The position numbers and the translations under genes are program-made. A DNA stretch of 63,943 nucleotides, filler included, from Reclinomonas americana ATCC 50394 (Eukaryota), in NCBI GenBank assembly GCA_048213135.1. It is 16 parts of 16 records of this genome, joined end to end, with 100 filler letters (N's around TTAATTAATTAA, not from the genome) between each part and the next. Parts side by side here need not be neighbours in the genome. Positions count along the whole stretch, not along the records: positions 59,291 to 62,655 come from AFZH01018299.1; 15 more parts are not named here. One strand, given 5' to 3'. Under the pieces are notes generated by a model, which saw only the letters and a program-made list of their open reading frames with translations, ran no database searches and was not told the origin of the DNA. Positions 59,473-61,113 of the stretch are shown piece by piece (position 1 is the stretch's first letter; each line of letters begins with the position of its first letter).

Positions 59473-61113
59473 CGCATGGCTCGATACACCAAACACCTCT
59501 CCCTTGTACCGTCGTCCGCAAGCGTCGCGTATCCAAGCAGAGGAACAAGCCGGCGATGATACAGACGCCCAATAGTGTTCATCTGCATCACCAATGAGTG
59601 AGCACACTCCAAAGGTCACTTCCCTTCTACTCTTTGCAAACCTCGGCATCATACGACTCCATCGCCCACGGCGCGGTGCTGTCGATCCGCTTGATGGCCA
59701 CATCCTCACCGTCCAGCAAGCACAGATACACCTCGCCTTGACCTCCCTCACCGGCCTTGTATCGCCGGTGGAAGGACTCGGTGGCGGAGACCACGTCGGC
59801 CCAGCCGTACTTGCGCAGGCGGCCGGGATGGGATGCTGGAAGTTGGACAGGGTGAGACAAGGAGATCGATGCGAACAGCAACCTCCCTGCTGCGCAAGCA
59901 CACCTTGCAGATTGCTCAACTCGCGGCGGAGACGATCGACCTGGCGGGCCAAGTCGGCGGATCGCTGCTGCTCGGTGGCAAGCGACTGCTCGAGGGCGGC
60001 GCACCGCTCGTCAGTCCCACGTTCCAGCTGCGCCACCCGTTCCACTGCCACCGCCCTGGCTTGTACCATCTCGGTCAGCGCTTGCGCCAGCTGCGCCTCC
60101 CGCTCTCCCGCGAGCATGTTGTCTCGCTGCAGCTCGAACACACGCTGACGATGCTGCGTCGCGATGACGTCGTGCTCCCGGCGCTGCGTTTCGAGTTGCC
60201 GCTCAAGTTCGCGCACTTGTTGGTCGTGCTCTCGGCGCTGCTGTTCGAGCTCGCGTTGGAGACGAGTGACATCAGCAGCAGACTGCGACGCGACAAGTAA
60301 GATTCAGCAACGGGGGCAAGCAAGAAGATTCACAGCGAGCCACCTGTTGCGCTGCGACGCCTGCATGTGACAACCGAGTCAGTATGGCAAGATGTGCAGA
60401 GCAGCAAGTCAAACGAAAGCACCTGGCACGAGTGCTGGCCGTGCAGCGAGACTGTCGAGCAGGTCGGCCACTCGCCGCTGACCCTCAGCGCGTGCCCACT
60501 GAGCCGCCGTCTTGCCCTTGGTGTTGACCACGGGAATGAGCTCGGGGAAGCGCGTGGCAAGGAGTCGCACAATCTCCTCGCGGCCCTTCCACGCAGCGAA
60601 ATGCAGTGCCGTGCACTCGGCATGCGTGGCAGAGTAATTGGTGACTGCTCGCACCACCTCCTGCGGGCACCGTCGCTCATCGGCCAGCAGCCATTCCACC
60701 ACTGCCAGGTGTCCTTGCAAGGCAGCCTCCATCAGTGGGGTCACACCACCGCGGGCGACCAGTTGGGCGAGTTGTGGGCCCACGCCACTCTCCTCCCACA
60801 GGTACTCCAGTGCACGCAGGTGGCCTCCGAGGGCGGCATATTGATAGGCCGAGCCGCCCTTGTCGCTCATTTCGTCTCTGTGCAGCAGTGTCTGTGCGCC
60901 CTCGCTGGTGACCAACTCGCGCAGTGCTTGCACGTCGCCGTTCCATGCTAGTTCGTAGGCTTTCTTTCGAGGTGGTGGCGGTGGGGGTGGGTTGGGAGGA
61001 GCTCTGGTGGTGGTGTGCATGAGAGGGGAAGAAGAAGAAGAAGAAGAAGAAGAGGCAGTCAGAGTGCGAGGGGGAGAATGCAGTGCGAACCTGGCGTTCT
61101 GTGCGGCACTCAT
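59473..61113 (-). CDS. Ankyrin-coiled coil-kinase protein with an IRAK/Pelle/RLK-like N-lobe (3' part missing beyond the gap)
   Basis: MSAAQNAR, ANK cassette (61003-60422), a 17-nt exon, coiled coil, then RKYGWADVVSATESF...GEGGQGEVY...DVAIKRI...YDAE|MNTIGRLYHRRLVPLLGY...RCLVYRAM. Confidence 0.8.

What the first reader, a model, noticed from the sequence alone, without database searches (positions are those of the whole stretch)
59473..61113. Paralog with the same ankyrin/coiled-coil front end but an IRAK/Pelle/RLK-type kinase
Seen: the kinase N-lobe has YGWADVVSATESF...GEGGQGEVY...VAIK...E|M.TIGRLYHRRLVPLLGY...RCLVY..M. No HEPN-like segment lies between coiled coil and kinase. Established: the 'F/Y-S-x-x-E/D-L-x-x-AT-x-x-F' leader and 'IGRLxHxNLVxLLGY...LVY' are hallmarks of RLK/Pelle/IRAK kinases, which are central to plant and animal innate immunity and patchily distributed elsewhere. 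Inference: an ankyrin-fused cytoplasmic Pelle-like kinase in a protist.
Basis: partly seen in the sequence, partly recalled or inferred. Interest (0 to 1): 0.72.

Follow-up and report, generated by a model that had tools for sequence, protein, structure and literature searches.

The report
Partial ankyrin-fused RLK/IRAK-like kinase gene
A partial gene in an unidentified microbial eukaryote joins ankyrin repeats and a long coiled coil to the front half of a kinase of the type used in plant and animal innate immunity. The back half of the kinase lies beyond the end of the assembled piece of DNA.

Summary
On the minus strand of a 3,365-bp contig (59291-62655), five exons with four GT-AG introns of 59-68 nt give an open 467-codon reading (61113 to 59463). 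It encodes a Ser/Pro-rich start, about four ankyrin repeats, a 17-nt mini-exon, a 126-residue helix with heptad periodicity, and then directly the N-lobe of a protein kinase.

Both kinase exons hit plant BRI1 best in the PDB. Nearly all other hits are plant receptor-like kinases (RLKs) or IRAK1. A scan of 1.84 billion proteins returns almost only plant RLK-type kinases, plus one Capsaspora "TKL/IRAK" kinase.

Three published hallmarks of the RLK/Pelle family are present: the helix plus TxxF cap ahead of the glycine loop, the tyrosine gatekeeper, and an intact Lys/Glu pair. The paralog's kinase, from the same window, shows none of this and serves as an internal control.

Three things stay unresolved. 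The C-lobe is not in the window. The 100-nt "gap" is a generic contig linker. A 101-column tree could not place the kinase. The organism could not be identified.

RLK/IRAK-like kinases in protists are already reported. The ankyrin/coiled-coil front end, reused on two unrelated kinases, is the new part.

The parts
60423..61113 (-). Exon 1. ATG at 61113, a Ser/Pro-rich low-complexity N-terminus (about 50 aa), then about four ankyrin repeats (residues about 50-215). Ends in phase 1.
   Evidence: ORF and splice sites. Pfam Ank_2 6.7e-18, Ank 1.4e-13, Ank_4, Ank_5 and Ank_3, all above cut-off. 65% and 59% identical to the two ankyrin modules of the paralog. dN/dS 0.36-0.37 against them.
60344..60360 (-). 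17-nt mini-exon (reads GVAAQQ together with the last base of exon 1). It restores phase 0.
   Evidence: CAG|...|GTGGCT sites, and only this choice keeps the frame. Mini-exons of 17 and 8 nt sit at the same place after both ankyrin modules of the paralog.
59904..60282 (-). Coiled-coil exon, 126 residues (SAADVTRLQ...RRELSNLQ), rich in R/Q/E/A/L.
   Evidence: AlphaFold2 gives one helix, residues 2-125, mean pLDDT 97.7. a/d heptad occupancy is 4.02 against 3.18 +/- 0.28 in shuffles, reached by 1 of 500. 34% identical to the paralog's coiled coil. Only weak coiled-coil Pfam hits below cut-off.
59642..59835 (-). Kinase exon K1. It holds the RLK/Pelle-type leader (alphaB helix WADVVSA plus TESF cap), the glycine loop GEGGQG, beta1-3 with VAIK Lys, and the alphaC Glu as its last codon.
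   Evidence: PDB phmmer: BRI1 9e-6, then LysM-RK, CERK1, BAK1, FERONIA, SYMRK and IRAK1. 69 hits at E<=1e-3 in 1.84e9 proteins. In A1 the columns T18, F21, G28, G30, G31, G33, V35, A46 and K48 are invariant. Fold: H11-17, E26-30, E33-40, E43-50, H57-63. All Foldseek rows shown are RLK or IRAK.
59463..59582 (-). Kinase exon K2: the rest of alphaC, beta4, beta5 with the Tyr gatekeeper (CLVY), and the start of the hinge. The end is at 59463 (GAG|GTGGGC, which fits the local AG|GTG donors) or at 59473.
   Evidence: PDB phmmer: BRI1 2e-4, SOBIR1, SYMRK. The Tyr aligns with chain residue 92 of 5lpb, which is BRI1 Y956, the gatekeeper (PMC10363478). Tyr is found in 43 of 60 aligned relatives.
59291..59462 (-). 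Start of the next intron, with a (GA)n run, reaching the contig end. No further kinase exon is recognisable in it.
   Evidence: The paralog's kinase also holds a roughly 500-nt intron with (GA)n, at 37633-38129.
59191..59290 (.). Contig linker N44-TTAATTAATTAA-N44. It is not a measured gap.
   Evidence: 15 identical linkers in the window.

Best explanation
This is the 5' part (at least 467 codons) of a real, spliced gene of a microbial eukaryote. It encodes a soluble signalling kinase. The order of parts is a Ser/Pro-rich N-terminus, about four ankyrin repeats, a coiled coil of about 125 residues, and then directly a kinase domain of the RLK/Pelle/IRAK type. The gene is cut by the end of a short contig inside an intron with a (GA)n run, so the C-lobe is missing from the assembly rather than from the gene.

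Proposed mechanism, by inference. The ankyrin repeats bind a partner or sensor. The coiled coil holds two or more chains together. Proximity then lets the kinase domains phosphorylate each other and downstream substrates. This would resemble what death-domain assembly does for IRAK4, and what receptor complexes do for plant cytoplasmic RLKs.

Shown here: the exon structure, the ankyrin repeats, the long helix, the RLK/Pelle hallmarks of the N-lobe, and the catalytic Lys and Glu. Inferred: an intact C-lobe, catalytic activity, oligomerisation, and any role in immunity.
For: Gene model. 1,401 nt in frame over five exons, with four GT-AG introns of 59-68 nt. The ankyrin exon evolves under constraint against its paralogs, dN/dS 0.36-0.37.

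Kinase type.
- K1 and K2 separately hit BRI1 best in the PDB (9e-6 and 2e-4), colinear across the splice.
- The first 21 rows for K1 are RLKs or IRAK1. Two of them are named only 'Protein kinase'. The first other kinase comes at E 0.49.
- Of 69 hits at E<=1e-3 among 1.84e9 proteins, 60 carry a Pfam kinase domain, 26 of these with plant RLK ectodomains. Three are spurious and six are short fragments.
- Of the 20 hits looked up, 16 bear an organism name: 14 land plants, 1 Closterium, and 1 Capsaspora 'TKL/IRAK protein kinase'.
- The spliced 100-aa N-lobe aligns end to end with these at 31-41% identity.

Hallmarks.
- The TxxF cap and glycine-loop residues are invariant in all 60 aligned relatives and present here. 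[quoted passage not shown]
- The predicted fold has that helix (H11-17, pLDDT >90). All Foldseek rows shown are BRI1, CERK1, LYK3, FERONIA or IRAK1/3/4.
- The Tyr gatekeeper aligns with BRI1 Y956 (PMC10363478). [quoted passage not shown]

Internal control. The paralog's kinase from the same window hits EGFR, AMPK, CDK6, RIPK1, WNK1 and TAK1 first, not RLKs. It shows no BLASTP similarity to this N-lobe (E about 1).

Coiled coil. No transmembrane stretch: maximum Kyte-Doolittle 19-residue mean is 1.10.
Against: - Only about 100 residues of the kinase are available. HRD, DFG and the activation segment are unseen.
- No kinase C-lobe exon exists anywhere else in the window. tblastn with 14 plant RLK kinases finds only this N-lobe and the paralog.
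- The last 172 nt of the contig hold no next exon, although the gene's other introns are 59-68 nt.
- The sequence departs from its relatives at three places. It has Gln where 58 of 60 have Phe or Tyr in the glycine loop, Arg where 51 of 60 have Glu after the gatekeeper, and Ala where 48 of 60 have Tyr or Phe.
- The tree on 101 columns is unresolved, and its outgroup was misplaced.
- The fold of K1 used an alignment made of RLK fragments, and Foldseek also scores sequence. Searches are therefore not independent of the sequence hits, and no Foldseek row reached E 1e-3.
- No expression data are available.
Confidence: 0.65

Rival explanations
1. Gene relic or exon-shuffled fragment. The ankyrin/coiled-coil cassette was joined to only the first two exons of an RLK/Pelle-type kinase, or the C-lobe has been lost, so no active kinase is made.
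For: - No C-lobe in the window.
- No next exon in the last 172 nt, although the other introns are 59-68 nt.
- Unusual Gln in the glycine loop, and Arg/Ala in the hinge.
- The front-end cassette is clearly mobile, with three copies in the window.
Against: - No stop or frameshift in 467 codons, and all splice sites are intact.
- The catalytic Lys, the alphaC Glu and the gatekeeper Tyr are kept.
- dN/dS is 0.36 on the ankyrin exon.
- The contig ends in a (GA)n run. The paralog's kinase has a roughly 500-nt (GA)n-bearing intron too, so a long intron and an assembly break are expected here.
Confidence: 0.17
2. A kinase of another, perhaps lineage-specific, TKL family. On this view its N-lobe keeps ancestral TKL features or has converged on RLK/Pelle-like motifs, and it does not belong to the RLK/Pelle/IRAK clade.
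For: - Identity to any RLK is only 31-41% over about 100 aa.
- The tree is unresolved.
- Only the N-lobe could be judged.
- Protists hold many lineage-specific TKL groups. For example, 60% of Phytophthora TKLs are oomycete-specific (PMC3019232).
Against: - Three family-specific features coincide: the alphaB/TxxF leader, the Tyr gatekeeper, and RLK/IRAK-only top hits by sequence and fold.
- The same searches on the paralog's TKL-like kinase give no such preference.
Confidence: 0.13
3. Plant DNA: contamination of the assembly, or a recent transfer of a plant RLK fragment.
For: The nearest database relatives are overwhelmingly land-plant RLKs.
Against: - At most about 41% identity over the whole N-lobe, and 50% over 46 aa at best, that best hit being an unnamed non-plant-labelled fragment.
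- In the tree it is not nested in any supported plant subfamily.
- The kinase exons are spliced to an ankyrin/coiled-coil front end that has a 59-65% identical paralog on another contig of the same window, with the same mini-exon structure, intron style and (GA)n content.
Confidence: 0.03

Closest known systems
Plant RLK/RLCK kinase domains (best solved match: BRI1 kinase, PDB 5lpb/5lpz/4oh4)
   Same: - The leader helix plus TxxF cap directly before the glycine loop.
- VAIK Lys, alphaC Glu, the HRxLVxLLGY motif, and LVY with the Tyr gatekeeper.
- 40% identity over 60 aligned positions of the fold.
- No transmembrane segment, as in cytoplasmic RLCKs.
   Different: - Ankyrin repeats and a coiled coil of about 125 residues in place of an ectodomain with transmembrane helix, or the short N-termini of RLCKs.
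- Gln for Phe/Tyr in the glycine loop, and Arg for Glu after the gatekeeper.
- The organism is not a plant by any sign seen.
- By recall, not tested here: plant RLCK-IX/U-box kinases also have a coiled coil just before an 'RKY..E[IV]..AT..F' leader.
Animal IRAK/Pelle kinases (IRAK1, IRAK3, IRAK4)
   Same: - The N-terminal kinase extension with alphaB and TxxF.
- The Tyr gatekeeper.
- Soluble, with an N-terminal assembly module ahead of the kinase.
- IRAK1 is a sequence hit (E 0.26), and IRAK4/1/3 are fold hits (TMq 0.67-0.77).
   Different: - No death domain. Pfam finds only ankyrin families in the 427 residues upstream.
- Sequence is closer to plant RLKs than to IRAKs.
- No MyD88/Tube-type context is known.
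Protist members already on record: the Capsaspora owczarzaki 'TKL/IRAK protein kinase' (P0045) and the five IRAK-class kinases of Phytophthora infestans
   Same: - A non-plant, non-animal eukaryote with RLK/Pelle-type kinase domains.
- The Capsaspora protein has the same A[TS]LV[ST]ATNNF-type leader in all three of its kinase domains. It is 36% identical over 90 aa.
   Different: - Capsaspora: LRR_6 plus three kinase domains, no ankyrin or coiled coil.
- Phytophthora: mostly with a transmembrane domain, and predicted inactive (PMC3019232, passages read).
Ankyrin-plus-kinase proteins of other TKL families (ILK, TNNI3K, RIPK4, RNase L; named from recall, not tested here), and the window's own paralog at 33380-38720
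   Same: Ankyrin repeats N-terminal to a kinase. The paralog shares the ankyrin/mini-exon/coiled-coil cassette.
   Different: The paralog's kinase is unrelated (BLASTP E about 1). It lacks a GxGxxG loop and the TxxF cap, and hits EGFR, AMPK and RIPK1 rather than RLKs. It also has an extra domain with an RHRVSH (Rx4H) motif between coiled coil and kinase.

Membership tests
RLK/Pelle/IRAK kinase family (TKL group) | N-terminal extension of the kinase core: an alphaB helix followed by an ST motif (TxxF), immediately before the glycine loop. Consensus FSYEELEKAT[D/N]NF[S/D] (PMC10916322). | tested here: met
   YGWADVVSATESFH aligns without a gap to BRI1. T18 and F21 are invariant in 13 of 13 rows and in 60 of 60 rows. 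AF2 predicts helix 11-17 with pLDDT >90. That fold used an alignment of RLK fragments.
RLK/Pelle/IRAK kinase family (TKL group) | Tyrosine gatekeeper (IRAK4 Y262, BRI1 Y956, FER Y610). | tested here: met
   The Y of CLVYRAM aligns with chain residue 92 of 5lpb (construct 865-1160), which is Y956 (PMC10363478, PMC3182414, PMC3498205, passages read). Tyr is found in 43 of 60 aligned relatives. The paralog reads LVLEYV there, by eye.
RLK/Pelle/IRAK kinase family (TKL group) | Nearest relatives by sequence and fold are family members rather than other kinases. | tested here: met
   The control with the paralog's kinase gives other families.
RLK/Pelle/IRAK kinase family (TKL group) | Falls inside the monophyletic RLK/Pelle clade in a kinase-domain phylogeny that includes other TKL families. 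| tested here: inconclusive
   The tree had 63 rows and 101 columns (10 short HSPs dropped), and 31 of 60 inner branches were open. The query pairs with the unnamed fragment P0070 (SH-aLRT 81). The outgroup paralog was misplaced. No IRAK, RIPK, MLK, RAF or LRRK references could be brought in.
RLK/Pelle/IRAK kinase family (TKL group) | A complete catalytic domain (HRD, DFG, activation segment, C-lobe). | not testable with these tools
   The contig ends at 59291. There is no C-lobe in the window, no genome held and no run listed.
IRAK/Pelle subfamily proper | N-terminal death domain. | tested here: not met
   Pfam on exon 1 and on the coiled-coil exon finds ankyrin families and weak coiled-coil hits only.
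Plant receptor kinases (RK configuration) | Signal peptide, ectodomain and a single transmembrane helix N-terminal to the kinase. | tested here: not met
   The maximum 19-residue Kyte-Doolittle mean is 1.10 over the 467 residues. The upstream domains are ankyrin repeats and a coiled coil.
Ankyrin repeat proteins | Tandem 33-residue ankyrin repeats scoring above Pfam's gathering thresholds. | tested here: met
   Ank_2 65.5 bits (cut-off 27.3), Ank 50.6 (21.1), Ank_4 49.5 (22.7), Ank_5 48.7 (27), Ank_3 38.7 (22.3).
Coiled coil | A long uninterrupted helix with heptad a/d hydrophobic periodicity that forms oligomers. | tested here: inconclusive
   A helix and periodicity are present. Only about 4 of 8 a/d positions are hydrophobic, and the segment is very R/E/Q-rich, so a single stable helix is not excluded. 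Oligomerisation was not tested.

The most novel reading that the evidence does not exclude
The ankyrin / mini-exon / coiled-coil cassette could be a reusable sensor-and-assembly module of a protist-specific defence or stress system. On this reading it has been wired by exon shuffling onto different effectors. Here the effector is an IRAK/RLK-type kinase. In the paralog it is an Rx4H (HEPN-like) domain plus an unrelated kinase, an arrangement that recalls RNase L. The coiled coil would then play the role that death-domain assembly plays for IRAKs. That would make this an independent, Myddosome-like use of an RLK/Pelle kinase outside plants and animals.
Probability: 0.1. Interest if true: 0.7.

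Novelty: new variant of a known kind. Interest (0 to 1): 0.4.

Why it matters
RLK/Pelle/IRAK kinases carry innate-immune signalling in both plants and animals. Whether that reflects common descent from an early eukaryotic kinase or separate recruitment is still debated. Each well-supported member from a poorly sampled eukaryote adds a data point. No gene tested in this window had a close relative among about 15 billion proteins.

This copy also has an architecture I did not find described: ankyrin repeats plus a coiled coil, with no death domain and no membrane anchor. One literature search for that combination turned up nothing relevant among the 12 of 671 rows listed, which is weak evidence of absence.

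The re-use of the same three-exon front end on two unrelated kinase domains is a neat case of exon shuffling.

Tried and rejected
- **Whole genome:** none held.
- **Sequencing runs:** none was listed and no RNA holder was listed, so there was no read-based extension or expression check.
- **Complex prediction:** not available for the coiled-coil homodimer.
- **The search for homologous proteins:**
  - Ankyrin exon with 'longer' gave only generic ankyrin proteins of at most 40% identity.
  - K1 with 'longer' gave none.
  - The polysaccharide deacetylase ORF, tried to place the organism, gave only relatives of at most 39% identity. Only two carried an organism name, both bacterial.
- **ESM Atlas:** K1 goes to Streptophyta fragment clusters (0.93-0.94). 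The deacetylase goes to bacterial and fungal clusters. These are leads only.
- **Metagenome scan with K1:** one locus, L001, is a high-GC contig with a Hanks-type kinase that merely shares GQGEVYLC. It is not a specific relative.
- **Viral contigs:** none.
- **C-lobe hunt:**
  - tblastn with paralog pieces. Four of the eleven queries were in a wrong frame (par_k2, par_k3, par_ank2, our_cc).
  - Repeated with 14 plant RLK kinases, which found only 59.5-59.9 kb and 37.2-38.4 kb.
  - Two weak K1 hits at 12888 and 8504 were chance.
- **Tree:** unresolved.
- **Pfam errors and failures:**
  - One paralog piece (36749-36835) was in a wrong frame, so 'no family' there means nothing.
  - One search failed on stop codons. 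The step was dropped, so the 29 short ORFs were never scanned.
- **Pfam survey for a lineage marker:** 73 longer ORFs gave only WD40, EGF, a deacetylase and ankyrin.
- **Tandem Repeats Finder:** found nothing on the contig at score 80. The repeat finder did.
- **Literature:**
  - One search found 0 papers.
  - The supplements of the kinome-tree preprint are closed and might list which protists hold IRAK4-clade kinases.
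Full report
**What the window is.** The 63,943-base window is not one continuous stretch. It is 16 contigs of 1.2-9.3 kb, joined by 15 identical linkers of N44-TTAATTAATTAA-N44. The finding lies on a 3,365-bp contig, 59291-62655. GC content is 55%, and microsatellites such as (GA)n and (CACT)n are everywhere.

**The observation.** I built the gene model from the sequence and checked it by script:
- Exon 61113-60423, with the ATG at 61113.
- Exon 60360-60344, a 17-nt mini-exon.
- Exon 60282-59904.
- Exon 59835-59642 (K1).
- Exon 59582-59463 (K2).

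Together these give 1,401 nt in frame, or 467 codons, with no stop. The four introns are 62, 61, 68 and 59 nt, all of the form AG|GT...CAG|. For the end of K2, the donor GAG|GTGGGC at 59463/59462 fits the local AG|GTG pattern best.

After K2 come 172 nt with a (GA)n run, and then the contig ends. No further kinase exon is recognisable there.

**Front end.** Pfam finds ankyrin families above their curated cut-offs in exon 1 (Ank_2 6.7e-18 and four others) and nothing else of note, in particular no death domain. The third exon is R/Q/E/A/L-rich.
- AlphaFold2 folds its 126 residues as a single helix, residues 2-125, with mean pLDDT 97.7.
- Its best-register a/d hydrophobic occupancy is 4.02 of 8, against 3.18 +/- 0.28 in 500 shuffles. 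One shuffle reached the observed value.

I read this as a coiled coil. A single stable helix is not excluded, and a dimer prediction could not be run. No 19-residue window reaches a Kyte-Doolittle mean above 1.10. The part we have is therefore soluble.

**The paralog and a shuffled cassette.**
- tblastn shows the ankyrin exon is 65% and 59% identical to two modules on contig 32929-39049. The coiled coil is 34% identical over 169 residues, E 4e-8.
- The paralog's front end is also one open reading of seven exons, 2,361 nt, all GT-AG.
- In all three copies, an ankyrin exon ending in phase 1 is followed by a mini-exon (17, 17 and 8 nt) that restores phase 0, and then by a helical exon.
- dN/dS between the ankyrin exons is 0.36-0.53. 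This is a rough Nei-Gojobori estimate with dS near 0.5-0.8.
- Downstream the two genes differ. The paralog has an extra domain with an RHRVSH motif and a kinase with no BLASTP similarity to ours, E about 1.
Only a 68-nt intron does.

**What kind of kinase.** I could not send a spliced sequence to the search tools, so the two kinase exons were searched separately.

*PDB sequence search.*
- K1 (64 aa) hits BRI1 at 9e-6. Next come a LysM receptor kinase, CERK1, LYK3, a lectin kinase, BAK1, two chains named only "Protein kinase" (Pto, by my recall), FERONIA, SYMRK and IRAK1.
- These fill the first 21 of 44 rows. The first kinase of any other family appears at E 0.49.
- K2 (40 aa) hits BRI1 at 2e-4, then SOBIR1 and SYMRK. 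One non-kinase chance row appears at 0.73.
- The two BRI1 alignments are colinear, with exactly the right spacing across the splice.

*Library of 1.84 billion representatives.*
- K1 gave 69 proteins at E<=1e-3. The best E-values (down to 3.7e-14) are inflated by gene models with several kinase domains. Single-stretch hits lie near 1e-4.
- Of the 69, 60 have Pfam kinase domains, and 26 of these also have plant RLK ectodomains (CRK, S-locus/B-lectin, malectin, LRR, L-lectin, SPARK, GH18).
- Three are spurious non-kinases (P0020, P0034, P0064). Six are short fragments with no family at 1e-10.
- I looked up 20 names and 16 carry an organism: 14 land plants, one Closterium, and one Capsaspora owczarzaki "TKL/IRAK protein kinase".
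- In a script, the spliced 100-residue N-lobe aligns end to end with these at 31-41% identity.

*Hallmarks.*
- PMC10916322 (passages read) defines a 14-residue consensus FSYEELEKAT[D/N]NF[S/D] next to the kinase core. This is an alphaB helix plus a TxxF "ST motif". [quoted passage not shown] Here the stretch reads YGWADVVSATESFH.
- T18, F21, the glycine-loop glycines, V35 and K48 are invariant across all 60 aligned relatives. A46 is kept in 59 and the alphaC Glu (E64) in 59 of the 60.
- AlphaFold2 on K1, with a 13-row alignment, gives helix 11-17, three strands and the start of alphaC, with pLDDT above 90 for residues 11-50.
- Every Foldseek row shown (ranks 1-50) is BRI1, CERK1, LYK3, FERONIA, other plant RLKs, or IRAK1/3/4. 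TMq is 0.64-0.81, but E-values are only 1e-3 to 2e-2. This fold test leans on an RLK alignment and on sequence, so it is supportive but not independent.
- The Tyr of CLVYRAM aligns with chain residue 92 of the BRI1 construct 865-1160, which is Y956. PMC10363478 names Y956 as the gatekeeper. PMC3182414 states that a Tyr gatekeeper seems exclusive to IRAKs among more than 400 human kinases. PMC3498205 says the same of IRAK family members (passages read in each). Tyr stands there in 43 of 60 relatives.

*Control.* The paralog's kinase exons come from the same genome, with the same composition. They hit EGFR, AMPK and CDK6 (N-lobe to catalytic loop), and RIPK1, WNK1 and TAK1 (C-lobe), not RLKs. 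The RLK preference of our N-lobe is therefore specific.

**What speaks against, or stays open.**
- The sequence is divergent. It has Gln in the glycine loop where 58 of 60 relatives have Phe or Tyr. The one other Gln is the unnamed fragment P0070. It has Arg where 51 of 60 have Glu after the gatekeeper, and Ala where 48 of 60 have Tyr or Phe.
- A quick IQ-TREE tree was built from 63 rows and 101 columns, with ten short HSPs dropped. The outgroups were the paralog and P0015, an ankyrin-plus-kinase protein. It is mostly unresolved: 31 of 60 inner branches are open.
  - The query pairs with P0070 (SH-aLRT 81), then with two fragments P0067 and P0084 (83).
  - It sits in no starred plant subfamily. 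The long-branched paralog was misplaced inside the ingroup.
  - No IRAK, RIPK, MLK, RAF or LRRK references could be obtained, so clade membership is untested.
- The C-lobe is nowhere in the window. tblastn with 14 full plant RLK kinases finds only 59.5-59.9 kb and the paralog at 37.2-38.4 kb.
- The other introns of this gene are about 60 nt, so a missing exon within 172 nt is mildly worrying. However, the paralog has a roughly 500-nt (GA)n-bearing intron inside its kinase domain, and (GA)n runs are where this assembly tends to break.

**Relatives elsewhere and the organism.**
- No close relative of any gene tested was found.
- The metagenome scan gave only a bacterial Hanks kinase that shares one heptapeptide. 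Viral contigs gave nothing.
- The nearest single fragment is P0070, 121 aa, from an unnamed Logan contig. It is 50% identical over 46 residues and shares GGQG and VYLC.LDG. It loses kinase similarity right after the alphaC Glu, as a read-through into an intron at our K1/K2 junction would. Its contig could not be fetched.
- The organism stays unidentified. It has spliceosomal introns and is not a sampled plant, alga or Capsaspora, whose annotated proteins would otherwise have matched.

**Comparison with what is known.** The following come from passages read.
- Phytophthora infestans has five IRAK-class TKLs, and none were found in Thalassiosira, Plasmodium or Paramecium (PMC3019232).
- Dictyostelium lacks IRAK (PMC1420674).
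- Choanoflagellates lack IRAK (PMC6040629).
- A eukaryote-wide kinome tree infers an IRAK4-type kinase in LECA, with high duplication and loss (bioRxiv 10.1101/2020.01.27.920793).

A protist RLK/Pelle-like kinase is therefore a further member of a known, patchy family, not a new kind. What differs is the architecture: ankyrin repeats plus a coiled coil directly ahead of the kinase leader, no death domain and no membrane anchor. The evidence that this front end is a shuffled three-exon cassette, also used on an unrelated kinase, is new too.

**Verdict.** My best explanation, at 0.65, is a real gene for a soluble ankyrin/coiled-coil RLK/Pelle-type kinase cut by the assembly. It would most likely be activated by coiled-coil-mediated proximity, which is an inference. 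Interest is moderate (0.4).

Noticed in passing
window 33380-38720 (+), contig 32929-39049: The paralog is one long gene. It starts MGAAQNG, which looks like an N-myristoylation site; our gene has MSAAQN at the same place. It then has two ankyrin modules each followed by a mini-exon, a 339-aa helical/coiled-coil exon, and a middle domain with an RHRVSH (Rx4H, HEPN-like) motif at about 36777-36794. Its kinase lacks a GxGxxG loop but has HRD and DFG. The order ankyrin, HEPN-like domain, kinase recalls RNase L.
   Followed up: partly
window 61200-62655 (+): A tandem array with a period of 432-450 nt and at least 3.3 copies, running to the contig end. It lies head to head with the kinase gene, starting about 90 nt from its ATG. 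It encodes acidic ORFs (MSDGDAPGDGPSASVAESIPPLHFLTVATPEEDAMEAPFLLLALFDRARASD...) with no Pfam family.
   Followed up: partly
window 57604-57703 / 58173-58272 and 57905-57978 / 58391-58464: Direct repeats of 93% and 96% identity span the linker at 57797-57896. At least these two neighbouring contigs therefore look truly adjacent, or belong to one tandem repeat.
   Followed up: no
window 58728-59135: About 400 nt of (CACT)n-type microsatellite fills the end of the contig that precedes the finding's contig.
   Followed up: no
window 2181-3218 (+): A single-exon ORF with very regular WD40 repeats (TPDGQH-type). Its best solved match is the Nostoc WD-40 repeat protein 2ymu (E 1.4e-146 summed over 7 stretches). 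This is the kind of WD40 array found in STAND/NACHT-type proteins.
   Followed up: partly
window 22056-22874 (-): A polysaccharide deacetylase (NodB) ORF, Pfam 2.6e-21. Its nearest relatives among 5.8 billion clusters are only 27-39% identical, and the only two with an organism name are bacterial.
   Followed up: partly
protein P0070 (unnamed Logan contig, 1,029 nt): A 121-aa fragment that is 50% identical to K1. It has the same rare Gln in the glycine loop, and its kinase similarity breaks off exactly at our K1/K2 intron position. It is possibly a member of the same family in another data set.
   Followed up: partly
window 3386-4372 (+): An ORF with a weak EGF-like match, below Pfam's cut-offs (EGF_Teneurin 1.3e-4, 22.4 bits against 24.3; EGF_2 21.8 bits against 22.1).
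   Followed up: no
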